Positions 30,808 to 58,021 of a stretch of DNA of 64,000 bases are shown here, one piece after another; within the stretch, counting starts at the first letter, position 1; the number at the start of each line of letters is the position of its first letter. This DNA is from Sphingomonadales bacterium (GTDB lineage: Bacteria > Pseudomonadota > Alphaproteobacteria > Sphingomonadales > Kordiimonadaceae), in contig JAALKD010000003.1 of the NCBI GenBank assembly GCA_011088215.1, positions 29,763-93,762 of the forward strand, given 5' to 3'. The notes below the pieces were generated by a model. The model saw nothing but the letters and a program-made list of their open reading frames with translations. It searched no databases and had not been told where the DNA came from. The translations under genes and the position numbers were made by a program.

Positions 30808-30840
30808 TTGTATACAATCGCTTAACTGAATTGTATACAT
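30808..30840. promoter_or_regulatory. Two GntR/FadR-type boxes in a divergent promoter
   Basis: TTGTATACAA (perfect palindrome, 30808-30817) and TTGTATACAT (30831-30840), between the CoA-transferase and lyase genes. Confidence 0.75.
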
Positions 30841-30867
30841 TTTTCATAATTTCAAGTTAGGCAATAG

Positions 30868-31821: not shown

Positions 31822-31865
31822 AGTAAATCATCGGCCGCGAGCCATCGTTAAGGGAGTGGGGTAAA

Positions 31866-33920: not shown

Positions 33921-33934
33921 GGGGAGGACGACCA

Positions 33935-37245: not shown

Positions 37246-37425
37246 GTTATATATCGGTCTGTCAAAGGTCCATGATACGGTCAACATCATCCACGGTTTC
37301 TTCAAGGCTACTGAAATAGGGAGCAACAATGAACAGGCTCATTGATATGGATCATTGTTTCGGTGCAGCTGTCTTGGTCTGCTACAAGCTCGTTAATCGT
37401 CTCATACAATCAGCGGGGAAAAGCC

Positions 37426-38118
37426 GTGGCAACAGAAGAAACCACTATGTTGCAATCAAGCAAAACAGCGCGTGAGTTTTTCGAGGACGTTATTGCTAAT
37501 CCCGCACGCGCCAAATTTGGTTTTGGTGATAAATTGGCGATCGTGAATGTGGATCCGCAGAAGGCCTATACCCGGCCTGATCTGTTCAAAACCGCCTACA
37601 TCACCGACCCCAAGCAGATGGCTTATATCAACCAAATCTCAAAGTTGGCGCGGGCCAAAAACCTGCCGGTCGCATGGACCCATGTGGCCTATATGGACGA
37701 TGCATCAGACGCCGGGGTGTGGGGCACGCGCACCGACACACCAGATAGCCTGCAAAATATCAAATATGGCTCGGTGCGGCACGAATTTGACGACCGGCTT
37801 GAAATCGATGAATCCTGCGACGCTGTTTACACCAAACGCATGCCTTCGGCGTTTTTTGAAACCCCGCTGGCGTCCTTCCTCAAGTGGCATGCAGTAGACA
37901 CTGTTGTTGTCACCGGTGGTTCCACTTCGGGCTGCGTGCGCGCCACGGCCGTTGATGCCCTGTCGCACGGTTACCGCACCATCGTGCCTGAAGAATGCGT
38001 TGCCGATAAGCATGAAAGCTATCATTTCGCCAACCTTACTGACCTGCAGCTCAAATATGCAGACGTGGTCAAGGTTCAGGATGTGATCAATTGGCTAGAT
38101 GCATACAGTGCCAAGTAG
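37426..38118 (+). CDS. Second isochorismatase-family amidohydrolase (NicF-like)
   Basis: IVNVDPQKAY, TKRMPSAFFET, GGSTSGCVRATAVD. GTG 37426 follows GGGG; ATG 37447 is an alternative start. Confidence 0.88.
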   Translation: MATEETTMLQSSKTAREFFEDVIANPARAKFGFGDKLAIVNVDPQKAYTRPDLFKTAYITDPKQMAYINQISKLARAKNLPVAWTHVAYMDDASDAGVWGTRTDTPDSLQNIKYGSVRHEFDDRLEIDESCDAVYTKRMPSAFFETPLASFLKWHAVDTVVVTGGSTSGCVRATAVDALSHGYRTIVPEECVADKHESYHFANLTDLQLKYADVVKVQDVINWLDAYSAK

Positions 38119-38127
38119 GAGGCTGTG

Positions 38128-39060
38128 ATGAAATACGATCCCGGCCTCTATGATTATTGGCCTTATGAGAACCGCCCCAAGATCACTTGGCCAGGCGGCA
38201 AAAAAGTCGCCTTTTGGGTCGCGCCCAATATAGAGTTTTACGAGCTAGATCCACCTGCAAACCCCCAGCGAAAAAGCTGGCCTCGGCCGCACCCTGACAT
38301 TGTGCCCTACAGCTACCGCGACCACGGCAACCGCGTTGGTCATTGGCGTCTTATGGAAATGATGGACGAATTCGGCGTGCGCGGCTCCATCTCGCTTTCG
38401 GTTGCCATGTGCCAACATCACCCTGAAATTATTGAAGCCTGCGCTGCCCGCAACTGGGAGTTTTTCAGTCACGGTATTTATAACACGCGCTATATTTACG
38501 GTATGGATCGCGCTCAGGAAGAAAGCATCCTGCTCGATTCCATCAAAACGGTTGAGGCCACCACCGGCCAGCGCATTCGAGGCTACCTTGCTCCAGCGCT
38601 TACCCACACCGAAGACACCATCGACCTGCTGGCGGAAAACGGGTTTTGGTACAGCTGCGACCTGTTCCAGGATGACCAGCCACAACCCTTAAAAACCAAG
38701 AATGGCAACAAGCTGGTTTCCATGCCCTATTCGCTTGAGGTCAATGACCACTATGCCTTCAACGTCTACGGTCAAAGCGCCCGCCAATATGCTGACCTAT
38801 TGAAACGGCAGTTTGATACCCTGCTGGAGGAAGGCGCAGACAGCGGCACCGTAATGTGCATTCCGCTGCATGCCTATTTGATTGGCCGCGCCCACCGCAT
38901 TGGGCCGTTCCGCGACGTGCTGGACTATATCACCAGCCACAAAGACGATGTGTGGGTCACCACAGCATCAGAGATCGCAGAGTTTTACATGAACAACTGC
39001 TATGACGAGGCACTGGCCAATATCGCTGCGGCGCAAACACCTGCGAGGGAGGCCTCATAA
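38128..39060 (+). CDS. Polysaccharide-deacetylase-fold hydrolase, PuuE (allantoinase)-like
   Basis: VAPNIEFY, YRDHGNRVGHWRL, FSHG, GYLAP, MPYSLEVND, CIPLHAYLIGRAHR. SD AGGAGG. Confidence 0.82.
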   Translation: MKYDPGLYDYWPYENRPKITWPGGKKVAFWVAPNIEFYELDPPANPQRKSWPRPHPDIVPYSYRDHGNRVGHWRLMEMMDEFGVRGSISLSVAMCQHHPEIIEACAARNWEFFSHGIYNTRYIYGMDRAQEESILLDSIKTVEATTGQRIRGYLAPALTHTEDTIDLLAENGFWYSCDLFQDDQPQPLKTKNGNKLVSMPYSLEVNDHYAFNVYGQSARQYADLLKRQFDTLLEEGADSGTVMCIPLHAYLIGRAHRIGPFRDVLDYITSHKDDVWVTTASEIAEFYMNNCYDEALANIAAAQTPAREAS

Positions 39061-39983
39061 TGTCGCTTCCTGAAGATTATCTGAAATACCCCCACCGTAG
39101 CCACGGCATGGACCACACGCTGTATCCTTGGTCAAACCTGATGGACCGCAAGCCTGTCAAATGGCCAGACGACAAATCGGTTGCGTTATGGATTACGGTA
39201 GCATTGGAATATTTCCCACTCACCCCCAACGACGGGCCTTTCCGCGCCCCCGGTCATATGGTTACGCCTTACCCTGATTACCGAACCTTCACCACGCGTG
39301 ATTACGGTAACCGTATCGGCGTGTTCCGTATTATGAAAGTGCTACAAAAACTGGATCTAAAGGCATCTGCACCCATGTCCGTAGAAGCGGCCAAACGGTA
39401 TCCGGCACTGCTGGAGGCAGTTCAAAAATGCGACTGGGAAATCATCGGCCACGGCATGGACATGAACCATATTCATTATGGCGGCATGGACGCGGACGTG
39501 GAAGAAAAACAGATTGTGGATTGTTTGGATGACCTTGAAGCACTGACAGGCAGAAAACCACAGGGCTGGCTTTCTCCCGCACGCTCCGAAAGTGAAAACA
39601 CACTCGCGCTATTGGCAAAACACGGCGTCGAATATGTATGTGATTGGGTCAATGATGACATGCCCTATCCTATGACCACCGAAGGTGGGCCGCTGGCCGC
39701 CATGCCGCACACCATGGAACTGGAAGATAGACAACTGATGGTCACACTGGGTCAAAACGAGGAAACCTACGAAGAACAAATTCTGGCTGCTTTTGACCTG
39801 CTCCGGCAAGAAGCAAAAACAACAGGTGGCCGCATCTTGCACTTGTCATTGACACCCTATGTCATCGGGCAACCCTTCCGCATTCATATCCTCAAGTCTG
39901 TATTATCAAAACTTGTAGAAAGCGGCGACATCTGGAGTGCAACCGGTGGCAAAATTCTGGAAGTCTGGAAACAACAGAGCTAA
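39060..39983 (+). CDS. Second PuuE-like polysaccharide-deacetylase-fold hydrolase
   Basis: VALEYF, RDYGNRIGVFRI, IGHG, GWLSP, LSLTPYVIGQPFR. Its start overlaps the paralog's stop. Confidence 0.82.
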   Translation: MSLPEDYLKYPHRSHGMDHTLYPWSNLMDRKPVKWPDDKSVALWITVALEYFPLTPNDGPFRAPGHMVTPYPDYRTFTTRDYGNRIGVFRIMKVLQKLDLKASAPMSVEAAKRYPALLEAVQKCDWEIIGHGMDMNHIHYGGMDADVEEKQIVDCLDDLEALTGRKPQGWLSPARSESENTLALLAKHGVEYVCDWVNDDMPYPMTTEGGPLAAMPHTMELEDRQLMVTLGQNEETYEEQILAAFDLLRQEAKTTGGRILHLSLTPYVIGQPFRIHILKSVLSKLVESGDIWSATGGKILEVWKQQS

Positions 39984-43930: not shown

Positions 43931-45295
43931 CTAGTCGATAAACTTCGCTAGTTCCGAACGGTAAGCCCTGCCAATAAAACCGGAAAACAACAGAATCGTG
44001 CCGCTATATAAAAGCGGCACCAACGACATGGAGTATCGGATTAGGCTTTCGTCACCGAACAGAAAGTCCGTGAAGAGTGGTACAACGGAAGGTCCTATTA
44101 GCAGCCCTGTCATGCTGATGAACATATAGTATAGAGCAACAGCCTGCCCGCGCAGTTCACTGGGTAAAATCGCCAGCAACGCGGTGATGCCCCCAGCGGT
44201 TACCATGGTAAAGCCGACATTGGCGAACTGCGATATGATAAAGGCAGTCCAGACATCCGGCATAAGCGGGAAGATCACACTTGAAACCACGAGCACGCCC
44301 AGCCCGGCCTGTGTAATGACAAACGGCATGTCATGCCGCCCCTTCTGATTGAAATGATCAATCACCCACCCCCAAAACAGGATGGAAGTTGGCGCCAAAA
44401 TTAGAAGGACCGAACCATTATAATTGCTGAAGGTTGACGCGCTCCAACCCCACGTGCGTTCAAACAACGGAGGCAACCACATGCTGGTATAGGCTATTGC
44501 AGTCATACCAGACACCATTACCGTAATACCCAGCAGGGGCAGTTTATGCCCCCAAATATAGCCAAGTGTTTGCCTAAATGTTGCAGCGCCTTTACCGCCG
44601 GTGGCAGAAAGCTTGGTTTGTTTGCGCGGGGGTTCTTTGACTGTTAAAAACACAAGGCCCAAAAGAATACCGGGAAAGCCAACCGCCAGGAACACAACCT
44701 GCCAGGGTTTGTCTACGCCGATAAATGCGAGATACGACAGGTCTGCCGTTTCGGCATAATCGAGGATGGCACCAACAACGAGATAGGCTATCGCCGAACC
44801 GACCCCCAACGCCATGGAATAGAAGGCGATTGCCTTTGCCCGTCGTTCAGGCGCAAACAGATCAGAGATTAGTGACATCGCGCTGGGGCTGAGAGCAGCC
44901 TCTCCGAAACCAACGGCCATGCGCGCCACAAACAGTTGGGCAAATCCGCGAGCAATTCCTGTTGCCATCGTCGCGACAGACCAGAGAATGGCACCCAGTG
45001 CAACAATGAATTTGCGTGGTTTACGGTCCACCAACCAGCCAAGCGGGATACCCATCGTCGCATAAAAAATGGCAAACGCCGCGCCGCCAAGCAACCCCAT
45101 ATTGGTATCAGACAGTCCCAGGTCTGCTTTCATTGGTTCCAAAACCAACCCAAGCACGATCCGGTCAATATAGGAGAAAATATAAGCGACTGTAAGCAAG
45201 ACAACCACATACCAACCGTAGCTTTCGCTAAGGTGCTCCCCTTTATCCGGACCACTAGGCGACTGTGCTTCGTTTGATTTTGGTGCGTCTGTCAT
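43931..45295 (-). CDS. MFS transporter (spinster-like)
   Basis: YIFSYIDRIVLG, GWLVDRKPRK, ARMAVGFGEAALSP. SD GGGGAG before ATG 45295. Confidence 0.9.
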   Translation of the reverse strand: MTDAPKSNEAQSPSGPDKGEHLSESYGWYVVVLLTVAYIFSYIDRIVLGLVLEPMKADLGLSDTNMGLLGGAAFAIFYATMGIPLGWLVDRKPRKFIVALGAILWSVATMATGIARGFAQLFVARMAVGFGEAALSPSAMSLISDLFAPERRAKAIAFYSMALGVGSAIAYLVVGAILDYAETADLSYLAFIGVDKPWQVVFLAVGFPGILLGLVFLTVKEPPRKQTKLSATGGKGAATFRQTLGYIWGHKLPLLGITVMVSGMTAIAYTSMWLPPLFERTWGWSASTFSNYNGSVLLILAPTSILFWGWVIDHFNQKGRHDMPFVITQAGLGVLVVSSVIFPLMPDVWTAFIISQFANVGFTMVTAGGITALLAILPSELRGQAVALYYMFISMTGLLIGPSVVPLFTDFLFGDESLIRYSMSLVPLLYSGTILLFSGFIGRAYRSELAKFID

Positions 45296-45455
45296 GAGCC
45301 ATTCTCCCCGCTGTGACCAGACGGTCACTTACTCGATTCGTCAATTGTTATATCTTTATCACAACTTTTACCAGTTCATTGACGTGTATCAATGCAGGAA
45401 GCGAGTTCATTTCTGACTATGCTGGCGAGAAAAGCTCGTACGCAGGGAGAGAGCA

Positions 45456-46175
45456 ATGGACACCTATTTTAATTTTCTTGGCATGGAGATCCCGCTGCAC
45501 GATGTGCTCCGGTGGGTGCATATTATTCTAGCCGCCTATTGGCTGGGCGGGGAATGGGGTGTGTTTAACGCATCCAAATTTGTCGCGGACCGCACCCTCA
45601 CGCTGGAGGAGAGACGACGCCACATGAAGACAGCTGTGATGATAGATATTTTGCCGCGTTCAGCCATCATTTGGCTGCTGCCAGTTGGTTTTCACATGTC
45701 TGATAACTTGGGGCTCTCACCGGTAAGCGGCATATGGGTAACGGTTGCCTGGGTTGTAACAGCCGCCTGGTGGTGGTTCCTGATTTGGGGGGCTTTCAAA
45801 AATGCAGGAACCGATACATATGTTCGCCTAACCGAAATTGATAATAAGATCAGATGGGTGCTTATTCCGTCACTGATCTTCGCGGGTGCATATACGATGG
45901 TAACAGGTAATGTCCTGTTTACCGGCGAGGAAGCCGGGCAATATTGGTTCAGCTTTAAGCTAACCTTCTTTGGATTCATCCTGATCATTGGCCTGTATCT
46001 GCGCTATGTAATGACCGACTGGGTTGGCGCCTTCAAGACGTTGGAACAAGACGGACCAAATGACGAGGTCGAGGATCATATTTCCGGCACCCTTAGCCAA
46101 GCCAAAAAGATCGCTTATCTATATTGGATCAGCATCGGCACTATGGCGTTTGTTGGAGTGACGAAGGCTTTCTGA
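45456..46175 (+). CDS. Integral membrane protein of unknown function (about 5-6 TM)
   Basis: 239 aa with hydrophobic helices, WVHIILAAYWLGG in the first helix, SD GGGAGAG and its own terminator. Confidence 0.8.
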   Translation: MDTYFNFLGMEIPLHDVLRWVHIILAAYWLGGEWGVFNASKFVADRTLTLEERRRHMKTAVMIDILPRSAIIWLLPVGFHMSDNLGLSPVSGIWVTVAWVVTAAWWWFLIWGAFKNAGTDTYVRLTEIDNKIRWVLIPSLIFAGAYTMVTGNVLFTGEEAGQYWFSFKLTFFGFILIIGLYLRYVMTDWVGAFKTLEQDGPNDEVEDHISGTLSQAKKIAYLYWISIGTMAFVGVTKAF

Positions 46176-46196: not shown

Positions 46197-46228
46197 AAAA
46201 AAGGCGGGTATCATGTGCCCGCCTTTTT
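46197..46228 (+). terminator. Intrinsic terminator
   Basis: AAAAAAGGCGGGTA-TCATG-TGCCCGCCTTTTT, 21 bp after the stop. Confidence 0.85.
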
Positions 46229-46329: not shown

Positions 46330-46419
46330 TGTGCCTTAATGTCTCAAATTTGGACGAACGCTGCCCGGACATACCCAAAATTCCAACAAATTGACTGCAT
46401 TCAATCAGAAATAATTGAT

Positions 46420-46439
46420 TATATTGATATATCAATATA
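46420..46439. promoter_or_regulatory. Perfect 20-bp palindrome, candidate GntR/HutC-type operator
   Basis: TATATTGATATATCAATATA, 35 bp upstream of the DUF1838-leuCD operon. Confidence 0.8.
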
Positions 46440-46474
46440 TTATTTAAGAGAACTTAGCAGAGAGGAGACATCAG

Positions 46475-47404
46475 ATGATGATGTGTAAAATAAAATCAGG
46501 GCAATCAGTTCTGAAACGCGCGGCAGCGGCCACAATTGGTACGCTCTTGATTAGCGCGACAGCGGGGGCTGCACCAATTGACCTGAATACGCCGGAAGGC
46601 GCAACCATGGCCAACCGCAAAATTCAATGTTCAACCGAAGATAACAAGCCTGTTCTCTATACATGGGAAGGCGCTGTTTTTTCTCGCCGCATGGGCGAGT
46701 CAGACAAACGCATGTTCAAAACTGTCGGCATGAACATTCGCGCCTGCGTAACCGTGGACGGCGGCAAAAAAGGTGTGGGTTACCGTTTGGTAACTCGCGA
46801 AATCCTATTGTATCTGGACCCAAAAACCGGTGAAGCGCTTGAAACCTGGGACAATCCCTGGACCAACACCACCGTCAATGTATTGCATGTTGCAAACGAC
46901 CCAGTTAATCAGCGCGCCAGCTTCCCCTACGATGATGAAGGCAAACCTCGTGCCCGTTGGTTTGGTCGAAACCAGAACGATACCTGGTTCCTAACCGCTC
47001 CGGTGCCCCTATTTTACCACAATGAGTTGGGCGGCGAATACCAGCCCTATGTTGGCGGTGCATACCACGCGACCGAGCTATTTAACTTTATAGGTGACCT
47101 GGACAGTCTGACCAGTGAAGACACCGACACAGCTGAGACTACAGTTGGTTGGGTGCGCATCTCTGACTGGTTGCCTTGGATGGAAATGCAAGGCCGGGAG
47201 GGTATTATATATATCCACGCCGCAGGTCAAAAAGTTGATTCGTTTGACGACATGCCAGATGTCATGAAACGATATATTGCCGAGAAAGAGCCAGACTATG
47301 TTAGACCTCCTCCCGGCGATGATGATCGCCCCAATGAGACCAGCTGGACCTATTTCAAGAAAAAGCTGAAAGGTGGCAAACTGCCACGCGGCGGCCACAA
47401 CTAA
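46475..47404 (+). CDS. DUF1838-like protein with signal peptide
   Basis: KRAAAATIGTLLISATAGA signal peptide; YLDPKTGE..ETWDNPWT..TVNVLHVANDPVN and WVRISDWLPWMEM. Family recalled from memory. Confidence 0.7.
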   Translation: MMMCKIKSGQSVLKRAAAATIGTLLISATAGAAPIDLNTPEGATMANRKIQCSTEDNKPVLYTWEGAVFSRRMGESDKRMFKTVGMNIRACVTVDGGKKGVGYRLVTREILLYLDPKTGEALETWDNPWTNTTVNVLHVANDPVNQRASFPYDDEGKPRARWFGRNQNDTWFLTAPVPLFYHNELGGEYQPYVGGAYHATELFNFIGDLDSLTSEDTDTAETTVGWVRISDWLPWMEMQGREGIIYIHAAGQKVDSFDDMPDVMKRYIAEKEPDYVRPPPGDDDRPNETSWTYFKKKLKGGKLPRGGHN

Positions 47405-47427
47405 CCGTCTGGAGCTACACCAACACT

Positions 47428-48819
47428 ATGCCAAAAACGCTGTTTGATAAGCTATGGGACGCGCATGTTGTTGGCGATCTCGGCGACGGCAATGCACTCC
47501 TGTATATCGACCGGATATTCTTACATGAACGTACCGGCAGCGTTGCTCTAAAAAGCCTGGAGGAAGGCGGACGCAAAGTCCGCTTTCCAGCCCATGTTTT
47601 CGGTGTTATGGACCATATCGTCGACACCCAAATTGGGCGTACCGACACCACTCAAATGCCTAGCGGAAAGCAGTTTATTTCGGCAATGCGTAGTGGCTGC
47701 AATTGGGCGGGCATCCGGCTATTTGATATCAATGACCCTGATCAGGGCATCGTTCACGTAATTTCACCTGAAAAGGGTATCGTCCTGCCTGGCCTTTCGC
47801 TTGTTTGCCCTGACAGCCACACCTGTTCACAAGGCGCTTTCGGCGCACTGGCATGGGGCATCGGCTCCTCTGAGGCGGAACATGCTCTCGCCACAAACAC
47901 GCTCAGAGCCGCCAAGCCAAAGGCCTTGCGCATAACCATCAACGGTGACACCGACAACAATGTCACCGCAAAGGATATTATCCTGGCCGTGATTGCCAAA
48001 ATCGGCACAAACGGTGCTGCGGGATATGCAATAGAATTCACCGGCAGCGCGGTTGATGCCATGGATATGGAAGCGCGCATGACCCTGTGTAACATGGCCG
48101 TTGAGCTGTCTGCCTTCACCGCCATAATCGCCCCCGACGCGACAACAGTGTCCTATTTGAAAAACAAGGAATACGCGCCTAAAGGTGCTATGTGGGAGCA
48201 AGCAAAGGCTGACTGGAAAACACTTAAAAGCGACCCGTCGGCACTCTTTAGCCAGACAATAGAGATTAATGCGTCAGACATCAAAACCATGGTTTCCTGG
48301 GGCACCAGTCCAGAACAGTCTGTGACTGCCACCTCCCGTGTTCCGACGCCGCAGTCCAAAGACGACGAACAAGCTTTGATCTACATGGACCTTGTACCCG
48401 AAATCCGGCTTTCGGACATTAAGATAGATGCCGCCTTCATCGGATCCTGCACTAACGGACGCCTTTCAGACCTCCGCGCGGCAGCCGCTATTTTAAAAAA
48501 CAACCACATCAAAGAGAATATAACAGCCATCTGTGTGCCAGGCTCCATGGCGGTGAAAATGGCGGCGGAGGCTGAGGGGCTCGATAAAATATTTACAGAA
48601 GCCGGTTTTGAGTGGCGATTGCCCGGCTGCTCCATGTGTTTTTATGCGGGCGGAGAAAGCTTCGGCCCAAATGCTCGCGTGATATCGACGACAAACCGAA
48701 ATTTTGAGAACCGGCAAGGACCCGGTACACGCACCCATATCGCAAGCCCGGCAACGGTGGCCGCGTCGGCGATCAATGGTAAAATCTGCGGGCCAAATGA
48801 ACTAGAGACTGGACGATGA
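47428..48819 (+). CDS. leuC: LeuC-like aconitase-family dehydratase/hydratase, large subunit
   Basis: KTLFDKLWDAH, CPDSHT, [4Fe-4S] Cys motifs GSCTNGR and GCSMC, STTNRNFENRQG. HERTGSVAL replaces the canonical HEVTSPQAF. Confidence 0.92.
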   Translation: MPKTLFDKLWDAHVVGDLGDGNALLYIDRIFLHERTGSVALKSLEEGGRKVRFPAHVFGVMDHIVDTQIGRTDTTQMPSGKQFISAMRSGCNWAGIRLFDINDPDQGIVHVISPEKGIVLPGLSLVCPDSHTCSQGAFGALAWGIGSSEAEHALATNTLRAAKPKALRITINGDTDNNVTAKDIILAVIAKIGTNGAAGYAIEFTGSAVDAMDMEARMTLCNMAVELSAFTAIIAPDATTVSYLKNKEYAPKGAMWEQAKADWKTLKSDPSALFSQTIEINASDIKTMVSWGTSPEQSVTATSRVPTPQSKDDEQALIYMDLVPEIRLSDIKIDAAFIGSCTNGRLSDLRAAAAILKNNHIKENITAICVPGSMAVKMAAEAEGLDKIFTEAGFEWRLPGCSMCFYAGGESFGPNARVISTTNRNFENRQGPGTRTHIASPATVAASAINGKICGPNELETGR

Positions 48820-49421
48820 AATCTGTAAATGTCATCCGAGGCGTTGCCGCCCCCATGTTTGAAGCCAACGTCGATACCGATGTGATCATTCCGTCTCGCG
48901 AAATGAAACAAGTGTCGAAAACCGGCCTGTCAAAGGGGCTGTTTGCCGGTCGCCGTTACATGAACTTCGAGACGCGAGAAATCAACCCGTCGTTTGTCTT
49001 AAATCAACCTGAATTTTCTTCCGCCGTCATTTTGCTGACAGATCAGAATTTCGGCTGCGGCTCCTCTCGCGAACATGCGGTATGGGCGTTGTTGGAGTAT
49101 GGCATCCAAGCCATCATTGCGCCCTCATTTGGCTCAATTTTCTACAAAAATTGCATTAATAATGGGCTTCTGCCGGCGACTATGGACCGAAGTACTGTTA
49201 TGAACCTTGTCAAACAATCAGGCAGTGAGTTTGCAATCAGCCTCAGCAACCAGACAATCACAGTCGCAGGGCAATTCTCGGTGACGTTTGACATAAACGA
49301 GAGCGACAAAAAACTCTTGATGGCGGGCCTTGATCCGATAGACCAAGCGCTGACATATAGTAAAGAGATTGAAGCTTTCGAAACAGCCAGGCAAACCAGC
49401 CACCCTTGGCTTGTGCTTTAA
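48816..49421 (+). CDS. leuD: LeuD-like small subunit
   Basis: NVDTDVIIP, NFGCGSSREHAVWAL, SFGSIFYKNCINNGLLP; ATGA overlap with leuC. Confidence 0.92.
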   Translation: MKSVNVIRGVAAPMFEANVDTDVIIPSREMKQVSKTGLSKGLFAGRRYMNFETREINPSFVLNQPEFSSAVILLTDQNFGCGSSREHAVWALLEYGIQAIIAPSFGSIFYKNCINNGLLPATMDRSTVMNLVKQSGSEFAISLSNQTITVAGQFSVTFDINESDKKLLMAGLDPIDQALTYSKEIEAFETARQTSHPWLVL

Positions 49422-49423
49422 GT

Positions 49424-49759
49424 TCAATAGGACTTGCCACCAACTGCGTCGCCGAGCGCACCTCTGAATAATTGAAATTCAATTTTCTCCCAGATACCCG
49501 CGTTAAAATAGGGGTCAGCTTCCAAAATAGCCCGGGCTTCATCTTGGTCGTCTGTCTTATAAATCAGCAGTGAGCCAATCACCGTCTTTTTGTCGTCCCC
49601 AAAAATGGGCCCGGCGATCAAAACTTTGTCGAGAATGGTTTCAACATACTGCAAATGCCCATCCAAAAATTCTGCCCGTGCCTTAACTGCCGCTTCGCCG
49701 GGCGCATCGCTACATTTGGCCATCACAAATAGTTTGCGGTTTTCATTACTGATCGGCAT
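49424..49759 (-). CDS. YciI-family protein
   Basis: RAEFLDGHLQY, LIAGP, GSLLIY, ARAILEADPYF. Confidence 0.88.
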   Translation of the reverse strand: MPISNENRKLFVMAKCSDAPGEAAVKARAEFLDGHLQYVETILDKVLIAGPIFGDDKKTVIGSLLIYKTDDQDEARAILEADPYFNAGIWEKIEFQLFRGALGDAVGGKSY

Positions 49760-49767: not shown

Positions 49768-50712
49768 CTATTCTACGTAGCCGTCCGGGTAACCTTTTGG
49801 CAATCCGGCGTCAGGCACAAATCCATAAAGGGGTTCGCCCGGCAAAGCTGCAGATACAATTTTTCGCACATCAAGTAGCTTCTCAAGATTAACTCCGGTT
49901 TCCAGTCCCATACTATCGAGCATATAAACTAGGTCTTCGGTAACAATGTTTCCGCTGGCGCCAGGCGCAAACGGGCACCCGCCAATGCCGCCCAGCGATG
50001 CATCAAATGTCGTAATACCAACTTCAAGACCCGCAAGGACATTTGCCAGACCTACACCCCGTGTGTTGTGTAGGTGCAGACCGTTAAGTTTATCTTCTCC
50101 GACCACATCTTTAACCGCTTTAACCAGACGTTTTACATGTGTTGGTGTCGCGTAACCAGTGGTGTCTGACAGTCCAACTTCATCGCAGCCGGCTTGCATC
50201 AATTGTTCCGCTAGACTCAATATCTCGGCCTCATCAATCGGGCCTTCAAGGGTGCAGCCAAAAGCAGTCGAAAGTCCACCCTCAAAGAATGGTCGCTCGC
50301 CTTCAGGCTGCGCCGCAATCATACCGGCAATAGCCGTTGCTTCATCGATCATTTGTTTGTGAGTGCGCCGTACGTTCTCCAAACTATGAGTCTCACTAAC
50401 CGATAGTGGGATAGTGATTTTGTCAACGCTTGCTCGCACCGCGTTTTCCGCACCTTTCAGGTTAGGAACCAAAACCGCAACTTTCAAACCCGGTAGCGTT
50501 TTAGCAAAAGCCACCAGCTCTGCGGTATCAGCAAGCTGAGGCAAGAGGCTCGCAGGCACAAATGAGCCTACTTCAATTTCAGGCACGCCCGCTTCAAACT
50601 CTGCTTTGATCCATGCTTTTTTGGCCTCAAGCGGCATAATGCGATCGATACTCTGTAATCCGTCGCGCGGCCCGACTTCACTGACTTCAATCACTGATTT
50701 CTTCCTGTTCAT
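49768..50712 (-). CDS. Second HMG-CoA-lyase-family acyl-CoA lyase
   Basis: EVGPRDGLQS, LSDTTG, HLHNTRGVG, GGIGGCPFAPGASGNIVTEDL. Confidence 0.92.
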   Translation of the reverse strand: MNRKKSVIEVSEVGPRDGLQSIDRIMPLEAKKAWIKAEFEAGVPEIEVGSFVPASLLPQLADTAELVAFAKTLPGLKVAVLVPNLKGAENAVRASVDKITIPLSVSETHSLENVRRTHKQMIDEATAIAGMIAAQPEGERPFFEGGLSTAFGCTLEGPIDEAEILSLAEQLMQAGCDEVGLSDTTGYATPTHVKRLVKAVKDVVGEDKLNGLHLHNTRGVGLANVLAGLEVGITTFDASLGGIGGCPFAPGASGNIVTEDLVYMLDSMGLETGVNLEKLLDVRKIVSAALPGEPLYGFVPDAGLPKGYPDGYVE

Positions 50713-50770
50713 CACAAACACCTGACGCCTTAACATCAAATTCGAGTTGTCAAAATTATTTAATTGATCT

Positions 50771-50784
50771 ATTGTTATACCAAT
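50771..50784. promoter_or_regulatory. ATTG-N-TATA-N-CAAT operator copy
   Basis: ATTGTTATACCAAT between the divergent lyase and CoA-transferase genes. Confidence 0.7.
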
Positions 50785-50875
50785 CAATGTTTTCGGTGCA
50801 AGAGTAGAGTTGAATTGCGTCTAAATTTGCAGCGAACAATCCAATACTGCGCACCATAGTAGGGACCGAATATAA

Positions 50876-52069
50876 ATGGCCGGCAAGCTTCAGCGCCCCT
50901 TAAGTGGGATCAAAGTTATCGAATTTACCCATATGGTAATGGGGCCAACGGTTGGACTGATTTTGGCGGACCTTGGTGCTGACGTGATCAAGATTGAACC
51001 AACTAAAGGTGACAATACCCGCCGACTTATCGGGTCGGGCGCAGGTTATTTTCCAATGTACAACCGCAATAAGCGTAGTATTTGCCTCGATATTAAAACC
51101 GAACGCGGCAAAGAAATTGCCAACAAGCTTATCGAAAAGGCAGACGTGTTCGTCGAAAACTTCCGACCGGGCGCCATGGACAAACTGGGTTTCAGCTATG
51201 ACGCCGTGTTTACCAACAACCCCAAACTGGTTTACTGTTCGGAAAAAGGATTTCTATCCGGCCCTTATGAAGACCGTGCCGCATTAGATGAAGTCGCACA
51301 GATGATGGGCGGTCTGGCTTATATGACTGGTCCGCCCGGCCGCCCGCTGCGCGCGGGTGCCAGCGTAACCGATGTTACTGGCGGCATGTTCGGGGCTATT
51401 GCTATTCTTGCTGCACTGGAAGAACGTCATCGCACAGGCAAAGGCCAATATGTCAAAAGCTCACTTTATGAAACAAGCGCCTTCCTGGTTGGGCAGCATA
51501 TGGCTCAATATGCAGTTACAGGTACGGCCGCTCGCCCCATGGCGGCTCGGATTTCTGCCTGGGCTATCTACGATATTTTTGAGACTTCAGATAATGATCA
51601 GGTCTTCGTGGGGGTAGTAAGTGATACCCAGTGGCGTCTATTTTGCGATGCATTCGATCTGTCAGAATTAGCCGAACACCAAGACTATGCACAAAACGCG
51701 GCACGAGTGGCAAAGCGCGATGAACTTATTCCAAAGATCGCCGGGATTTTCAAAAATTATACAAAAGCAGCATTGATGGAAAAGTTGGAATCGGCCGGAT
51801 TACCTTTCGCCCCAATCAACAGACCCGAAGATTTGTTCGATGACCCGCATTTAAGCGCTGGTGACAGTCTTATTGATGTTTCCTTATCCGATGGCGCCAA
51901 GGCGTCACTGCCTGCACTTCCAATCGAAATGGCTGGGAAACGCCCTGACCTCTATCAGGATCTGCCCGGCATCGGTGAACATACAAACAGCGTATTGGAA
52001 GAGATCGGTTATTCGTCCGAGGAAATTGAAATATTGGCGACTGACTTGGTAACAAAACGCTCAGGCTAG
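50876..52069 (+). CDS. Class III CoA-transferase (CaiB/BaiF)
   Basis: MVMGPTVG, VIKIEP, NRNKRSICLD, ENFRPGAMDKLG, SVTDVTGG. Confidence 0.92.
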   Translation: MAGKLQRPLSGIKVIEFTHMVMGPTVGLILADLGADVIKIEPTKGDNTRRLIGSGAGYFPMYNRNKRSICLDIKTERGKEIANKLIEKADVFVENFRPGAMDKLGFSYDAVFTNNPKLVYCSEKGFLSGPYEDRAALDEVAQMMGGLAYMTGPPGRPLRAGASVTDVTGGMFGAIAILAALEERHRTGKGQYVKSSLYETSAFLVGQHMAQYAVTGTAARPMAARISAWAIYDIFETSDNDQVFVGVVSDTQWRLFCDAFDLSELAEHQDYAQNAARVAKRDELIPKIAGIFKNYTKAALMEKLESAGLPFAPINRPEDLFDDPHLSAGDSLIDVSLSDGAKASLPALPIEMAGKRPDLYQDLPGIGEHTNSVLEEIGYSSEEIEILATDLVTKRSG

Positions 52070-53079
52070 CTTACGTGAACGATTTGCTTGCCTACGTTTT
52101 TACCGTCATAAAGCCGGATCAAAGCTGTTGGCATCATCTCTAGCCCCTCCAGTCGGTCTTCCTGATAGGTCAAATCACCACTAGCAATCCATTCCGCCAT
52201 TGTCGCCTCGGCTTCAGCAAACATCGGCGCATAGTCATAAACGAAAAAGCCCTGCATTTTAGCGCACATATGGCCGATTTCGCCCCAGTTCCGCAATCGG
52301 TAAGGCTCATCGTTCAAATATTCTGATATACGCCCACAACAAATGATCCGAGCATATTTGTTAATATGCAACAGCACTTGGTCAAGGATCGAGCCGCCTA
52401 CATTGTCGAAGAAAATATCGACCCCGTCCGGCGTCACTTGAGAAAGCGCTTCGCCAACGTCCTGATCACGGTAATTGATCGTCGCGTGGCACCCCAGTTT
52501 TTCCTCGAGCAAACGACATTTTTCGTTTGAGCCAGCAATGCCGATGACCCTGCAGCCCATGAGGCGTGCCAATTGCACCGCTGTGCTCCCAACACCGCCA
52601 AGCGCGCCTGAGACAACAACGGTTTCACCTTTCTTGGGTTTGCCAATATCCTTCAACGCGCAGTAGGAAGTAAAGCCAGTCATGCCGAGTACACCCAGGC
52701 CTGTGGCAATCGGCGCGACAGTTTGGCGAATGGCAAACATCAGACTACCCGGCGCGCCGTCCGCTACCGCATAATCCTGCCAGCCAAGCTTTCCTTGCAC
52801 GATTGTGCCAACGGGCCATTCGGTATTGCGGCTTTCGACAATTTCACCAACACCGCGGCCGCGCATCACATCACCGATTGCCAGAGGTTCTTCGATACCC
52901 GCACCATCAATCATGTAATTGCGCATAACCGGGGCAACCGAGAGATAGCGTGTGCGAAGTAGAAATTCGCCCTTCTCAATTGAAGGAATGGCTTTTTCCT
53001 GCAGGCTAAAGTCACTCTCTTTAACTGCGCCCACCGGGCGAGCTGCGAGACACCACTGTCGGTTTACTTTTACGGTCAT
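52066..53079 (-). CDS. Second NADP-dependent alkenal/ene reductase (MDR, prostaglandin-reductase-like)
   Basis: YLSVAP, LGVLGMTGFTSY, VSGALGGVGS, FFDNVGG, GKNVGKQIV. SD AAGGA. Confidence 0.9.
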   Translation of the reverse strand: MTVKVNRQWCLAARPVGAVKESDFSLQEKAIPSIEKGEFLLRTRYLSVAPVMRNYMIDGAGIEEPLAIGDVMRGRGVGEIVESRNTEWPVGTIVQGKLGWQDYAVADGAPGSLMFAIRQTVAPIATGLGVLGMTGFTSYCALKDIGKPKKGETVVVSGALGGVGSTAVQLARLMGCRVIGIAGSNEKCRLLEEKLGCHATINYRDQDVGEALSQVTPDGVDIFFDNVGGSILDQVLLHINKYARIICCGRISEYLNDEPYRLRNWGEIGHMCAKMQGFFVYDYAPMFAEAEATMAEWIASGDLTYQEDRLEGLEMMPTALIRLYDGKNVGKQIVHVS

Positions 53080-53189
53080 ACTTGTTTCCTTCACCGGAGT
53101 AAGCATGAAGAGAGAATACACTCGCTATGATGTAGATCATTTCCGCGCCGCATACCGTATAGCAGGCTCCGAAAAAAGGAGATTAACCT

Positions 53190-57089: not shown

Positions 57090-57902
57090 CTAAGTTTCGG
57101 CTTTCCAAAAATTCGACTCTTCACCTTCGATACGCGCCAAACTCATATTCAGCTGATACAGATCAGGACGGTAAAGCACCGTAATAAATTCAACTGGTCG
57201 ATCATTACCGTCAAATACCACACGCATCACTTTCAAAAGTGGACTACCAACATTGACCCCAAGCGCTGGCGCGGTCTTACCGTCCGCCAATGTCGCAGTA
57301 ATAGACTGCCGAGCGCGCGAAATGCGCACACCGGCGCGCTCCAGAAGCGCAAGCAATGGCTGATTTTCCATCTCATCACGCTCAAAAGAATGTCCAATAT
57401 CCGCAGGCACGTATGTTTCAACAAATGAAAAGGGCGTATCATCTTTATGCCGAACCCGAATAGCGCGTTGCACCGAAGCCCCAACTTCAATATCAAGTGC
57501 CTCGGCCGCGCGCGGCGGTGCGCCCACATAATCAAATTCCAAGATTACAACATGAGTTTCCTGGGCAATGGTCAACAGGTTTTCGAGCAACCCATCCATT
57601 GTCTCTGCGCTTTTAGAGGGTACTGGTGTGGAAAAGGTTACCACTGTGCCGCGGCCGCGCTGGCGCGCAACCAAACCATCTGCAGCAAGTTCATCCAGCG
57701 CGCGTTTAGCCGTAATCCGTGACACGCCAAAAACTTTTTCAATCTCATGCTCACTCGGGATCAAAGAACCATCAGTATAGTCGCCAGAAACAATTTTCTC
57801 CCTGAGCAAGACATAAATCTGATGATACAGCGGTGTAGGCAAATCCTCACTGACCCGCTCGGTTGCCGAGAAGGATAACATTGACGACGTTTTTTTGTTC
57901 AT
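57090..57902 (-). CDS. GntR-family regulator (HutC subfamily, UTRA domain)
   Basis: PLYHQIYVLLREKI..G...IPSEHEI...FGVSRITAKRAL..L...G.VARQRGRGTVV plus UTRA-type C-terminus. Confidence 0.92.
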   Translation of the reverse strand: MNKKTSSMLSFSATERVSEDLPTPLYHQIYVLLREKIVSGDYTDGSLIPSEHEIEKVFGVSRITAKRALDELAADGLVARQRGRGTVVTFSTPVPSKSAETMDGLLENLLTIAQETHVVILEFDYVGAPPRAAEALDIEVGASVQRAIRVRHKDDTPFSFVETYVPADIGHSFERDEMENQPLLALLERAGVRISRARQSITATLADGKTAPALGVNVGSPLLKVMRVVFDGNDRPVEFITVLYRPDLYQLNMSLARIEGEESNFWKAET

Positions 57903-58021
57903 AGACCCCACCAAAAATTACTCAAGGACAAGAAGGTTGCCAAAAATTTCGCCTGAGCCCCTCACGCGAATTTAAGTGGCTATTGATGTGCATCAACGCC
58001 CGTCCACTTCAATCTACCTAT

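What the first reader, a model, noticed from the sequence alone, without database searches (positions are those of the whole stretch)
46475..49421. DUF1838 is co-transcribed with a LeuCD whose substrate motif has diverged
Seen: a three-gene operon behind the strongest operator; HERTGSVAL replaces HEVTSPQAF while the Fe-S cysteines are intact; no leuA or leuB in the window. Inference: a catabolic hydratase/isomerase for a substituted maleate, which gives DUF1838 a functional context.
Basis: partly seen in the sequence, partly recalled or inferred. Interest (0 to 1): 0.55.

Follow-up and report, generated by a model that had tools for sequence, protein, structure and literature searches.

The report
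Catabolic LeuCD-like hydratase plus exported DUF1838
This operon does not make leucine: it pairs an exported barrel protein of unknown function (DUF1838) with an extra, specialised copy of the LeuCD iron-sulfur hydratase, which across many bacteria sits beside a CoA-transferase and a lyase and probably breaks down a still unidentified maleate-type acid.

Summary
Genes 46475-49421 form a tight DUF1838-LeuC-LeuD operon behind a perfect 20-bp palindrome. The LeuC reads HERTGSVAL where the genome's canonical LeuC, in a leuCDB-asd cluster on another contig, reads HEVTSPQAF. All catalytic and Fe-S residues are kept.

The motif is not a local drift. It marks an old, monophyletic LeuCD subfamily: HERTG in 119 of 120 homologs, and LeuD IIPSREMK in 14 of the 15 orthologs read (IIPSREIK in the other). 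The subfamily is always an extra copy and was found in about 1% of sampled Pseudomonadota.

Its conserved partners are a family-III CoA-transferase and an HMG-CoA-lyase-family enzyme. With at least 8 kb of flank, 25 of 26 metagenome loci carry one or both, against 0 of 14 other LeuC loci.

Best reading: substituted maleate to 2-substituted malate to CoA ester to acetyl-CoA plus a 2-oxoacid. The substrate is unknown. Recurrent ring-opening amidohydrolases and amidases suggest a nitrogen-ring precursor.

DUF1838 is exported (signal peptide, two invariant Cys) and modelled as a calycin-like beta-barrel, so it is not a hydratase subunit. It is adjacent to this LeuCD in few loci, but 10 of 11 DUF1838 genomes carry the subfamily.

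The scan has noted this module and DUF1838 islands before on other DNA.

The parts
46198..46228 (+). Intrinsic-terminator-like hairpin ending the upstream membrane-protein gene. It sets the 5' limit of the operon.
   Evidence: 11-nt perfect inverted repeat, AAAAAGGCGGG / CCCGCCTTTTT.
46409..46445 (.). Operator and promoter. A perfect 20-bp palindrome (46420-46439, core ATTGATATATCAAT) overlaps a -35/-10-like pair (46415-46443).
   Evidence: Related copies at 50771, 58022 and 45344; 10 matches against 3.2 expected.
46475..47404 (+). DUF1838 protein (309 aa), exported. It has an N-terminal Sec-type signal peptide (cleavage probably after AGA, around residue 32) and two invariant Cys. Modelled as a closed antiparallel beta-barrel.
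   Evidence: PF08894, E 1e-70. Alignment A3. AlphaFold model, pLDDT 84.7. Fold matches at Z 7-8 to BFA1, Rv2717c, CpeS, DUF3598, nitrobindin and CpeT.
47428..48819 (+). Large subunit of a LeuC-like aconitase-family hydratase, HERTG subfamily.
   Evidence: PF00330. NF009116 scores 669 bits (cut-off 531); TIGR00170 leuC scores 554.9, below its 560.25 cut-off. 46% identical to the canonical LeuC. Clade support 100/100.
48816..49421 (+). LeuD-like small subunit with the subfamily loop IIPSREMK (canonical: IIPAQHLK).
   Evidence: PF00694 and TIGR00171. Alignment A2. IIPSREMK in 14 of the 15 orthologs read, IIPSREIK in L101.
49424..49759 (-). YciI-like small protein, co-oriented with and downstream of the lyase gene.
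   Evidence: PF03795. Syntenic in the Kordiimonas loci L012-L014.
49768..50787 (-). HMG-CoA-lyase-family (DRE-TIM) lyase, a conserved partner of the LeuCD subfamily. The real start is probably the ATG near 50712 (MNRKK...), which leaves the operator at 50771-50784 intergenic.
   Evidence: PF00682; NF004283 at 277.7 bits, cut-off 246. Orthologs at 57-79% identity beside HERTG LeuCD.
50876..52069 (+). Family-III (CaiB/BaiF) CoA-transferase, a conserved partner of the LeuCD subfamily.
   Evidence: PF02515, E 2e-115; below every NCBIfam equivalog cut-off. Orthologs at 58-74% identity beside HERTG LeuCD.
43931..45328 (-). MFS transporter, divergent from the membrane-protein gene, with an operator-like site at 45344.
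   Evidence: PF07690. Operator match. Syntenic in L012-L014.
45456..46175 (+). Polytopic membrane protein with no Pfam family. It recurs near DUF1838 and near the LeuCD module.
   Evidence: No Pfam or NCBIfam hit. Homologs within 5 kb of DUF1838 in 8 of 62 loci and in 6 of 47 HERTG loci.
52066..53121 (-). NADPH-dependent ene-reductase-like protein (ADH_N_2; curcumin/alkenal reductase-like, below cut-off).
   Evidence: The same family occurs in 7 of 47 HERTG loci.
57090..57914 (-). GntR/HutC-type regulator (UTRA domain), the likely repressor for the ATTG-N6-CAAT operators.
   Evidence: PF00392 + PF07702. Operator copy at 58022 beside its gene. The same family occurs in 5 of 47 HERTG loci.
37342..39983 (+). 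Isochorismatase-family hydrolase (37342-38118) plus two CE4/PuuE-like 'polysaccharide deacetylase' genes (38125-39060, 39060-39983). The same triad lies directly beside this LeuCD on two plasmids.
   Evidence: pJE1 and the Acidiphilium plasmid. CE4 in 10 and isochorismatase in 9 of 47 HERTG loci.

Best explanation
The LeuC/LeuD pair is the hydratase (or hydratase/isomerase) of a four-enzyme catabolic module. It is cytoplasmic and uses a [4Fe-4S] cluster like aconitase. It adds water to a 2-substituted maleate, or isomerises a 3-substituted malate, to give a 2-substituted (citramalate-type) malate. The neighbouring family-III CoA-transferase then makes the CoA thioester. The HMG-CoA-lyase-family enzyme cleaves it by a retro-Claisen reaction into acetyl-CoA and a 2-oxoacid.

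The substituent is not a plain isopropyl group. The residues around the substrate pocket are replaced by subfamily-invariant ones: in LeuC, HE-R-TG-S, with an Arg two residues after the equivalent of aconitase Gln72; in LeuD, S-R-E-M.

The acid probably arises from a nitrogen-containing ring or amide opened by the co-occurring PuuE-like, isochorismatase-type, CN-hydrolase and HyuAB-type enzymes.

DUF1838 is co-transcribed but exported. It most likely binds or processes the imported compound in the periplasm, between the TonB-dependent receptor and the MFS/SSF importer. The whole set is repressed by the HutC-type GntR through the ATTGATATATCAAT operators.

Shown: gene order, subfamily identity, intact catalytic residues, conserved linkage, export signal, co-occurrence.
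Inferred: reaction order, substrate class, role of DUF1838, identity of the repressor.
For: - Extra copy: a canonical leuCDB-asd cluster lies elsewhere in this genome, and the 4 other carriers checked also keep a canonical leuC.
- Distinct clade, 100/100 support on a long branch.
- Fixed signatures: HERTG in 119 of 120 homologs, plus CPDSHTC and GCSMCF[FY]AGGE; IIPSREMK in 14 of the 15 LeuD orthologs read, IIPSREIK in the other.
- His33 aligns with aconitase Gln72. All Fe-S and catalytic residues are kept.
- Linkage: HMGL and CoA-transferase orthologs are present in 6 of 6 independent genome and plasmid loci. Among metagenome loci with at least 8 kb of flank, 25 of 26 HERTG loci have one or both, against 0 of 14 non-HERTG LeuC loci.
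- On plasmids pJE1 and Acidiphilium JZ-6 the genes are contiguous with an isochorismatase and two CE4 genes. The window holds the same triad.
- The operator is shared by the operon, the lyase/transferase promoter and the regulator gene.
- DUF1838: a signal peptide and an invariant Cys pair in all 20 aligned homologs; a beta-barrel model.
- Co-occurrence: in one 401-genome sample both are present in 5 genomes, DUF1838 only in 1, LeuCD only in 1, neither in 394. A further 5 of 5 DUF1838 genomes carry a HERTG LeuC.
- Enzymological precedent, from my own knowledge: archaeal LeuCD hydrates maleate and citraconate (also cited in PMC8307300). [quoted passage not shown] 2006, 2007). EC 4.1.3.46 and EC 2.8.3.20 are listed.
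Against: - No substrate, activity or expression data exist for any member, and I found no paper on the subfamily or on DUF1838 function.
- The order of the steps is inferred. A route with CoA transfer first and a LeuCD acting on something else is not excluded.
- L019 and L022 (DUF1838-LeuCD) and L162 show no lyase or transferase within 5-7 kb.
- DUF1838 is adjacent in only 2 of 52 metagenome LeuCD loci, and its own neighbourhoods are heterogeneous, so its role may not be specific to this pathway.
- The fold matches for DUF1838 are only middling (Z 7-8) and include outer-membrane barrels.
- The co-occurrence counts include related genomes (G204, G266 and G293 belong to one family).
Confidence: 0.6

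Rival explanations
1. The module handles plain citraconate or maleate. It would be the gene-orphan lower branch of the (alkyl)gentisate pathway: citraconate to (R)-citramalate to (R)-citramalyl-CoA to pyruvate plus acetyl-CoA, with no nitrogen-ring precursor. DUF1838 would be an unrelated neighbour.
For: The enzyme trio is exactly what this classical route needs (Hopper, Chapman and Dagley 1971; the reference was seen, its content is from my own knowledge). EC 4.1.3.46 and EC 2.8.3.20 are listed. The known itaconate cluster does not use citraconate or (R)-citramalate, so a separate gene set must exist (PMC9875883). Cupin (DUF4437), VOC and alpha/beta-hydrolase genes lie nearby.
Against: Ordinary LeuCD already hydrates citraconate, so the invariant Arg and Glu changes in the pocket suggest a different, perhaps charged or bulkier, substituent. 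No gentisate dioxygenase or maleylpyruvate hydrolase was recognised in the window. C-N hydrolases are the commonest accessory genes. TonB-dependent receptors and exported barrel proteins are not needed for a C5 diacid.
Confidence: 0.2
2. The pair is a second, redundant isopropylmalate isomerase for leucine biosynthesis, and its location is fortuitous.
For: NCBI and JGI annotate the homologs as 3-isopropylmalate dehydratase. LeuD passes TIGR00171, and LeuC misses TIGR00170 by only 5 bits.
Against: A canonical leuCDB is present in every carrier checked. The clade is separate, with fixed pocket changes. Linkage to the lyase and transferase is 25 of 26 against 0 of 14. The distribution is patchy, about 1% of genomes. 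The genes are plasmid-borne in sphingomonads and Acidiphilium. The operon is under HutC-type operator control.
Confidence: 0.03
3. DUF1838 is a cytoplasmic accessory subunit or chaperone of the hydratase (for example for Fe-S loading or substrate channelling), which would explain the co-transcription.
For: There is a 23-nt gap before LeuC within one operon. LeuC is the commonest immediate downstream gene of DUF1838, in 7 of 62 loci. Genome-level co-occurrence is strong.
Against: All 20 aligned homologs have an N-terminal signal peptide and an invariant Cys pair. Most LeuCD loci lack DUF1838 nearby, with only 2 of 52 carrying it. The usual neighbours of DUF1838 are TonB-dependent receptors, exported hydrolases and transporters.
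Confidence: 0.04
4. The LeuCD is a 2,3-dimethylmaleate hydratase of the DmdAB type from nicotinate fermentation.
For: DmdAB is also a LeuCD-like pair acting on a dialkylmaleate (my own knowledge). Amidase-type genes occur nearby.
Against: The DmdAB route uses an isocitrate-lyase/PEP-mutase-family 2,3-dimethylmalate lyase and needs no CoA. On pJE1 such a lyase sits beside the other, non-HERTG LeuCD pair, while the HERTG pair sits with the CoA-transferase and HMGL.
Confidence: 0.05

Closest known systems
3-Isopropylmalate isomerase LeuCD (bacterial TIGR00170/TIGR00171; archaeal MJ0499, PDB 4KP1/4NQY)
   Same: The same two-subunit aconitase-family architecture, with the three Fe-S cysteines and all catalytic residues. 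46% identical to the genome's own LeuC. Best PDB sequence match, E 3.5e-62.
   Different: A separate clade. HERTG[SGA] replaces HEVTSPQ, and IIPSREMK replaces IIPAQHLK. Below the leuC equivalog cut-off. Never next to leuA or leuB; always an extra copy; linked to a CoA-transferase and a lyase.
Maleate hydratase (EC 4.2.1.31) and (R)-2-methylmalate dehydratase (EC 4.2.1.35); 2,3-dimethylmaleate hydratase DmdAB
   Same: Catabolic use of a LeuCD-type enzyme to hydrate maleate or alkylmaleates. This is the reaction class proposed here (my own knowledge; the maleate-hydratase activity of archaeal LeuCD is cited).
   Different: No sequence of these enzymes was available for comparison here. Their products are not known to be processed by a CoA-transferase plus an HMGL-type lyase encoded alongside. 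DmdAB pairs with an ICL/PEPM-family lyase.
[quoted passage not shown]
   Same: A family-III CoA-transferase next to an HMG-CoA-lyase-family lyase, acting on a 2-alkylmalate. This is the best precedent for the two partner genes (EC entries; Friedmann et al. 2007, reference seen, content from my own knowledge).
   Different: There it operates in a carbon-fixation context with no LeuCD-type hydratase. I could not test orthology to the proteins here. The window's transferase and lyase are below all NCBIfam equivalog cut-offs.
Cyclic-imide and maleamate catabolism (imidase/allantoinase PuuE-type ring opening; NicF-type isochorismatase-family maleamate amidohydrolase)
   Same: PuuE-like CE4 proteins, isochorismatase-family hydrolases, CN-hydrolases and HyuAB-type ATP-dependent lactamases recur beside the module and occur in this window.
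   Different: All of these score far below the equivalog cut-offs. In the nicotinate pathway maleate is isomerised to fumarate, not hydrated and cleaved as a CoA ester.
Calycin-like ligand-binding beta-barrels (nitrobindin/Rv2717c, CpeS/CpcT bilin lyases, DUF3598, BFA1)
   Same: The DUF1838 model is a closed antiparallel barrel. The best soluble matches are these folds: Z 6.0-8.3, 114-141 aligned residues.
   Different: Sequence identity is 4-10% and the Z scores lie in the range common for unrelated barrels. DUF1838 is larger (about 270 mature residues), exported, and has many invariant polar residues of its own.

Membership tests
Aconitase superfamily, LeuC/LeuD-type heterodimer (PF00330 + PF00694) | Domain models matched over their full length | tested here: met
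   PF00330 at 496.7 bits over profile positions 1-463; PF00694 at 108.4 bits.
Aconitase superfamily, LeuC/LeuD-type heterodimer (PF00330 + PF00694) | Three cysteine ligands of the [4Fe-4S] cluster, the catalytic Asp-His, Asp-Ser-His, Asn/Glu and Asn-Arg residues, and GSSRE in the small subunit | tested here: met
   C341, C401, C404; D62-H63; D129-S130-H131; N222/E226; N423-R424; R429; S83-S84-R85. All are invariant across the three paralogs and align to aconitase.
Bona fide 3-isopropylmalate dehydratase of leucine biosynthesis (TIGR00170 leuC equivalog) | Score at or above the curated equivalog cut-off | tested here: not met
   554.9 bits against a cut-off of 560.25. The small subunit does pass TIGR00171 (184.6 against 116.25).
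Bona fide 3-isopropylmalate dehydratase of leucine biosynthesis (TIGR00170 leuC equivalog) | Conserved HE(V/I)T(S/T)PQAF segment around the equivalent of aconitase Gln72 | tested here: not met
   HERTGSVAL here. HEVTSPQAF, or close variants, in the canonical LeuC of this genome and of four other carriers.
Bona fide 3-isopropylmalate dehydratase of leucine biosynthesis (TIGR00170 leuC equivalog) | Genomic association with leuB or leuA, and being the copy needed for leucine synthesis | tested here: not met
   leuB lies only beside the C4 copy; there is no leuA or leuB in the window. Whether this copy is dispensable for leucine synthesis cannot be tested with these tools.
NCBIfam NF009116 (PRK12466) LeuC-like subfamily | Score above the subfamily cut-off | tested here: met
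   669.1 bits against 531. The model carries no experimentally based function that I know of.
HERTG LeuCD / CoA-transferase / HMGL-lyase module (defined here and in earlier scan notes; not a published family) | HERTG in LeuC and IIPSRE(M/I) in LeuD, with orthologous family-III CoA-transferase and HMGL-family genes within a few kb | tested here: met
   Both motifs are present. The lyase lies 0.35 kb and the transferase 1.5 kb downstream. The same set occurs in 6 of 6 genome and plasmid loci and in 25 of 26 long metagenome loci.
DUF1838 (PF08894) | Match to the family model above its cut-off | tested here: met
   238.5 bits against 25, over profile positions 2-231 of 232.
Calycin / nitrobindin-like beta-barrel fold (for DUF1838) | Structural superposition clearly above the background of unrelated barrels | tested here: inconclusive
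   Best soluble matches at Z 7.4-8.3 (BFA1, Rv2717c, CpeS, DUF3598), but outer-membrane barrels score the same. Foldseek best E is about 1e-3 with TM 0.26-0.33.
HMG-CoA lyase proper (leucine catabolism) | Equivalog-level match and a liu/leucine-degradation context | tested here: inconclusive
   Only the broad NF004283 subfamily model is passed (277.7 against 246). The genome has two further HMGL-family paralogs at 36-37% identity. The context here is LeuCD plus a CoA-transferase, not liu genes.

The most novel reading that the evidence does not exclude
The module is the cytoplasmic end of an undescribed pathway for consuming pyrrole-ring debris of chlorophyll, haem or phycobilins. TonB-dependent receptors and exported barrel proteins (DUF1838, CpcT-like, DUF3598) would capture the pigment fragments. 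PuuE-like, HyuAB-type and isochorismatase-type hydrolases would open and deamidate dialkylmaleimide-type rings. The HERTG LeuCD, whose pocket has gained an Arg, would hydrate the resulting dialkyl- or carboxyalkyl-maleate (for example a hematinic-acid-type diacid) for cleavage by the CoA-transferase and lyase. DUF1838 would then be a periplasmic binding or processing protein for such fragments.
Probability: 0.12. Interest if true: 0.85.

Novelty: new variant of a known kind. Interest (0 to 1): 0.58.

Why it matters
Public databases label thousands of these genes '3-isopropylmalate dehydratase'. That label is very likely wrong for this subfamily, and it inflates leucine-pathway calls in metabolic reconstructions.

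The conserved LeuCD / CoA-transferase / HMGL-lyase module is a concrete candidate for the genes of alkylmaleate and (R)-citramalate-type catabolism. That route has been known enzymologically since the 1970s. I found no paper that assigns genes to it, and the known itaconate cluster does not use citraconate or (R)-citramalate.

The module also anchors a larger, uncharacterised import-and-breakdown regulon found in marine and soil Proteobacteria and on catabolic plasmids.

DUF1838 has no functional literature. For it, the near-exclusive genome-level co-occurrence with this module, plus the export signal and barrel fold, turn 'unknown' into a testable hypothesis: a periplasmic binder or enzyme for the pathway's substrate.

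Tried and rejected
I obtained neighbourhoods from the fetch from genomes, plasmid annotation and a metagenome scan instead.
- A PDB sequence search with DUF1838 found nothing. Foldseek against the PDB gave only weak barrel matches. The protein-atlas search gave no usable hit for DUF1838 and only unnamed clusters for the membrane protein.
- A PDB search with only the first 91 residues of LeuC found nothing. I took the Gln72 alignment from the full-length search instead.
- Literature searches found no functional work. The terms were DUF1838, maleate hydratase, Sphingomonas sp. JE1, and the combination isopropylmalate / HMG-CoA lyase / CoA-transferase.
- Friedmann et al. 2007 and Hopper et al. 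1971 are not held. What I say about their content is from memory.
- The C. necator and P. aeruginosa C5-dicarboxylate papers do not mention a LeuCD-type route.
- I rejected the idea that the 301-aa gene after LeuD on pJE1 is a DUF1838. It is a two-domain VOC protein.
- I rejected a gentisate-dioxygenase reading of the bicupin at 63097. It is DUF4437/ChrR-like.
- The regex I used to pull LeuC ORFs for the tree missed L098 and L099, so those two rows are absent from the tree.
- No model coordinates were available to me. I therefore could not check whether Arg35 points into the active site or whether Cys52 and Cys91 of DUF1838 are within disulfide distance.

Full report
**1. What is in the sequence**

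Three + strand ORFs fill 46475-49421: 309 aa, a 23-nt gap, 463 aa, a 4-nt overlap, then 201 aa. Pfam assigns DUF1838 (PF08894, E 1e-70), Aconitase (E 1e-148) and Aconitase_C (E 4e-31).

The upstream gene ends in a G+C-rich hairpin at 46198-46228. A perfect 20-bp palindrome at 46420-46439 overlaps a sigma-70-like promoter, and a GAGAGGAGA ribosome-binding site precedes the start codon. The next gene downstream (YciI-like) is convergent, so the unit is a three-gene operon.

The 14-nt core of the palindrome recurs in three other places:
- 50771, between the divergent lyase and CoA-transferase genes (2 mismatches);
- 58022, beside a HutC-type GntR gene (1 mismatch);
- 45344, between the MFS and membrane-protein genes (3 mismatches).

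In all there are 10 matches, against 3.2 expected. This agrees with an earlier first-reader note on this window (e1-5280166), which I saw only after running the search.

**2. The LeuCD is an extra copy**

The assembly is 100% complete by marker genes and holds three LeuC homologues.
- The one on contig C4 is followed by leuD, leuB and asd. It is the canonical biosynthetic copy and reads VHEVTSPQAF.
- The one on C80 is co-transcribed with an alpha/beta-hydrolase and reads MNEYTSPQAF.
- The one in the window is 46% and 49% identical to these two and reads LHERTGSVAL.

All Fe-S ligands and catalytic residues are intact in both subunits. leuB exists only on C4, and the only LeuA-sized protein is on C95.

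The refuting condition it named, that this is the only leuCD in the genome, is not met.

**3. The 'diverged motif' is the signature of an old subfamily**

- Among the 120 best homologues, 119 read HERTG[SGA][VIA][AS][LMI]. They also share CPDSHTC[ST] and GCSMCF[FY]AGGE.
- The LeuD substrate loop reads IIPSREMK in 14 of the 15 orthologs I read and IIPSREIK in the other (L101). These range from Kordiimonas to Sphingomonas, Acidiphilium and a gammaproteobacterium. The canonical loop is IIPAQHLK.
- In the alignment to pig aconitase, His33 takes the place of the substrate ligand Gln72. The subfamily's new Arg lies two residues later. The role of Gln72 is from established knowledge of aconitase.
- In a maximum-likelihood tree the HERTG sequences form one clade (100/100), separated by a long branch from a clade that holds the canonical LeuCs, the C80 paralog and a second pJE1 LeuC. 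Within the HERTG clade the branching does not follow taxonomy, which suggests lateral transfer.
- The protein passes NCBIfam's NF009116 subfamily model but falls just short of the leuC equivalog cut-off.
- In an even sample of 401 Pseudomonadota genomes the subfamily was found in 5.
- The four other carriers each also have a canonical LeuC, 60-65% identical to the C4 copy.

**4. Its conserved partners are a CoA-transferase and an HMG-CoA-lyase-family enzyme**

In the window these lie immediately downstream: 49768-50787 on the - strand and 50876-52069 on the + strand.

Orthologs at 57-79% and 58-74% identity accompany the LeuCD in:
- three Kordiimonadaceae genomes, two other alphaproteobacterial MAGs and Exilibacterium;
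- four further sampled genomes;
- the plasmids pJE1 of Sphingomonas sp. JE1 and an Acidiphilium multivorum plasmid.

A metagenome scan gave a built-in control of 52 HERTG loci and 28 other LeuC loci. With at least 8 kb of flanking DNA, 25 of 26 HERTG loci carry the lyase and/or the transferase (19 carry both), against 0 of 14 controls. At 5 kb or more the counts are 32 of 36 against 0 of 19, Fisher p about 3e-11. The loci are not phylogenetically independent.

This linkage, not DUF1838, defines the system.

**5. Likely chemistry (inferred)**

An aconitase-family hydratase makes or interconverts 2- and 3-substituted malates through the cis-enedioate.

An HMGL-family lyase cleaves 3-hydroxy-3-substituted acyl-CoAs. 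A 2-substituted malate activated at C4 is such a substrate, and it yields acetyl-CoA plus a 2-oxoacid.

[quoted passage not shown] EC 2.8.3.20 and EC 4.1.3.46 are listed. The Friedmann 2007 reference was seen, but the paper is not held, so its content is from my own knowledge. A second precedent is the maleate and citraconate hydratase activity of LeuCD-type enzymes.

The known itaconate cluster does not use citraconate or (R)-citramalate (PMC9875883). A separate genetic route is therefore expected.

**6. What feeds the module**

I clustered the neighbours of 47 HERTG loci of at least 6 kb. This set includes five loci that were found through DUF1838. Counts of loci per family:

| Family | Loci |
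|---|---|
| CE4 'polysaccharide deacetylase' | 10 |
| FAD_binding_4 oxidase | 9 |
| Isochorismatase-family hydrolase | 9 |
| DUF1838 | 9 |
| Two-domain VOC | 8 |
| TonB-dependent receptor | 7 |
| ADH_N_2 ene-reductase | 7 |
| Pfam-less membrane protein | 6 |
| CN-hydrolase | 6 |
| Aldehyde dehydrogenase | 5 |
| HutC-type GntR | 5 |
| SSF transporter | 5 |

On pJE1 and the Acidiphilium plasmid, an isochorismatase and two CE4 genes sit directly between the lyase and a LeuCD pair. The window holds the same triad at 37342-39983.

The CE4 proteins are closest to PuuE allantoinase. The window's HyuAB pair (31866-35794) is closest to caprolactamase. All score well below the equivalog cut-offs.

A second GntR / isochorismatase / CoA-transferase / HMGL / HyuAB unit lies at 28137-35794. 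A similar unit (GntR, HMGL, CoA-transferase, hydantoinase/oxoprolinase) lies within 20 kb of the LeuCD module on the Acidiphilium plasmid.

The recurrence of ring-opening amidohydrolases and amidases points to a nitrogen-containing ring or amide as the source of the maleate-type acid. This is a lead, not a result.

**7. DUF1838**

No solved structure matches by sequence, and no paper addresses its function.

All 20 aligned homologues begin with a basic, then hydrophobic, then small-residue signal peptide that is not conserved in sequence. They share two invariant cysteines and an unusually large set of invariant polar residues, including the NDPVN and WLPWM.M..R.G motifs.

The AlphaFold model (pLDDT 84.7) is a closed antiparallel barrel spanning residues 41-256. 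Its best soluble structural neighbours are BFA1, Rv2717c and nitrobindin, CpeS and CpeT, and DUF3598, at Z 6.0-8.3. This range is also reached by unrelated membrane barrels.

An exported barrel cannot be a subunit of a cytoplasmic Fe-S enzyme.

Of 80 DUF1838 loci from reference genomes, only 8 have this LeuCD beside them: seven directly downstream on the same strand, all Kordiimonadales- or Emcibacterales-like, and one divergent in Exilibacterium. Within 5 kb, the family's commoner neighbours among 62 analysable loci are:

| Neighbour family | Loci |
|---|---|
| Zn-dependent dehydrogenases | 22 |
| Alpha/beta-hydrolases | 16 |
| TonB-dependent receptors | 16 |
| MFS transporters | 13 |
| VOC proteins | 11 |
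| CpcT-like proteins | 9 |

Only 2 of 52 metagenome LeuCD loci include DUF1838. This genome's other two DUF1838 paralogs (40-42% identical) lie elsewhere. One is beside a TonB-dependent receptor and a PepSY protein; the other is beside an amidohydrolase and an unknown protein.

**8. The two families nonetheless travel together at genome level**

In the same 401-genome sample, DUF1838 occurs in 6 genomes and the HERTG LeuC in 6. The latter count includes G204, whose copy is truncated and lies 4.5 kb from its DUF1838.
- Both present: 5 genomes.
- DUF1838 only: 1 (G135).
- LeuCD only: 1 (G347).
- Neither: 394.

Fisher p is about 4e-10. Three of the five double-positive genomes belong to one family, so only three independent lineages carry both.

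I picked five further DUF1838 genomes without regard to LeuCD: two Paraglaciecola, an alphaproteobacterial MAG, Lentisalinibacter and a Woeseiaceae. All five encode a HERTG LeuC (57-63% identity) elsewhere, in addition to a canonical copy.

So 10 of 11 DUF1838 genomes carry the subfamily, against a background near 1%. The context is that of a shared pathway or regulon, with DUF1838 on the periplasmic uptake or processing side.

**9. Relation to earlier notes of this scan**

After forming the reading above, I found that the same LeuCD/transferase/lyase module and DUF1838 islands had been noted in other genomes. These notes include a 'cyclic-imide-type breakdown' reading (e1-5240304) and a 'pigment-ring breakdown' reading (e1-5247149).

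They are AI notes and not independent evidence. My own tests reproduce the linkage and the C-N-hydrolase association. They neither confirm nor exclude the pigment idea, which I keep as the novel case at about 12%.

**10. Verdict**

The hydratase is catabolic and belongs to a conserved, uncharacterised four-gene module. 'Substituted maleate' is the best chemical guess, but no substrate has been tested.

DUF1838 is an exported barrel protein linked to the module by co-occurrence and, in this lineage, by co-transcription. It is not linked by physical partnership.

Novelty: a new variant of a known kind (a catabolic LeuCD-type hydratase) tied to a protein family of unknown function. Interest is moderate to good.

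Noticed in passing
L009:7433-10331 (G000 contig C80): A third LeuCD pair in this genome is translationally coupled to an upstream alpha/beta-hydrolase. Its LeuC reads NEYTSPQAF, with Asn at the position of the aconitase Gln72 / LeuC His, and sits on a very long branch (1.81). This may be another non-leucine hydratase.
   Followed up: partly
L100:2359-5181 (plasmid pJE1, Sphingomonas sp. JE1): A second, non-HERTG LeuCD pair lies next to an isocitrate-lyase/PEP-mutase-family gene. The arrangement recalls dimethylmaleate hydratase plus dimethylmalate lyase. It is only 5 kb from the HERTG LeuCD/transferase/lyase set.
   Followed up: partly
window 28137-35794: A second unit holds GntR(FCD), isochorismatase, a family-III CoA-transferase, an HMGL-family lyase and a HyuAB-type (caprolactamase-like) ATP-dependent hydrolase. 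A similar unit (GntR, HMGL, CoA-transferase, hydantoinase) lies within 20 kb of the LeuCD module on the Acidiphilium multivorum plasmid (L101:17418-21380).
   Followed up: partly
window 45456-46175: A polytopic membrane protein has no Pfam or NCBIfam family. It recurs near DUF1838 (8 of 62 loci) and near the HERTG module (6 of 47 loci, including pJE1 at 25% identity). It may be an undescribed transporter or membrane enzyme of the system.
   Followed up: partly
window 49768-50787: The listed TTG start of the lyase ORF would place the operator-like site at 50771-50784 inside the coding region. The ATG near 50712 (MNRKK...) is the more likely start and leaves the site in the divergent promoter.
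   Followed up: partly
L011:3521-6058 (G000 contig C64): The TonB-dependent receptor next to the third DUF1838 paralog is split into a Plug ORF (3521-5041) and a barrel ORF (5045-6058). This is either a broken gene or a sequencing error.
   Followed up: no
L195 and L193 (G204:C1:1468187-1469230 and 2655334-2656734): In G204 the HERTG-type LeuC, 4.5 kb from its DUF1838, matches only residues 3-354 in a 350-aa frame and so looks truncated. The canonical LeuC match there contains one in-frame TGA.
   Followed up: no
L192:2-3841 (metagenome contig Ga0182030_10050907): A non-HERTG LeuCD (47% identity) is directly preceded by a distant HMGL-family gene (41%) and a CoA-transferase (27%). A LeuCD/lyase/transferase arrangement may therefore have arisen more than once.
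   Followed up: no
L061:3730-7810 (Woeseiaceae chromosome OZ245060.1): Three DUF1838 paralogs lie within 4 kb: two in tandem on one strand and the third divergent. They are followed by an MFS gene and a gene like the Pfam-less membrane protein. The family has expanded into local paralog arrays in some genomes.
   Followed up: no
L098:5704-9464 (G266): Two unusual Rieske fusions sit upstream of the LeuCD module: Rieske plus a glutamate-synthase-type FMN domain, and Rieske plus a thiamine-diphosphate enzyme.
   Followed up: no
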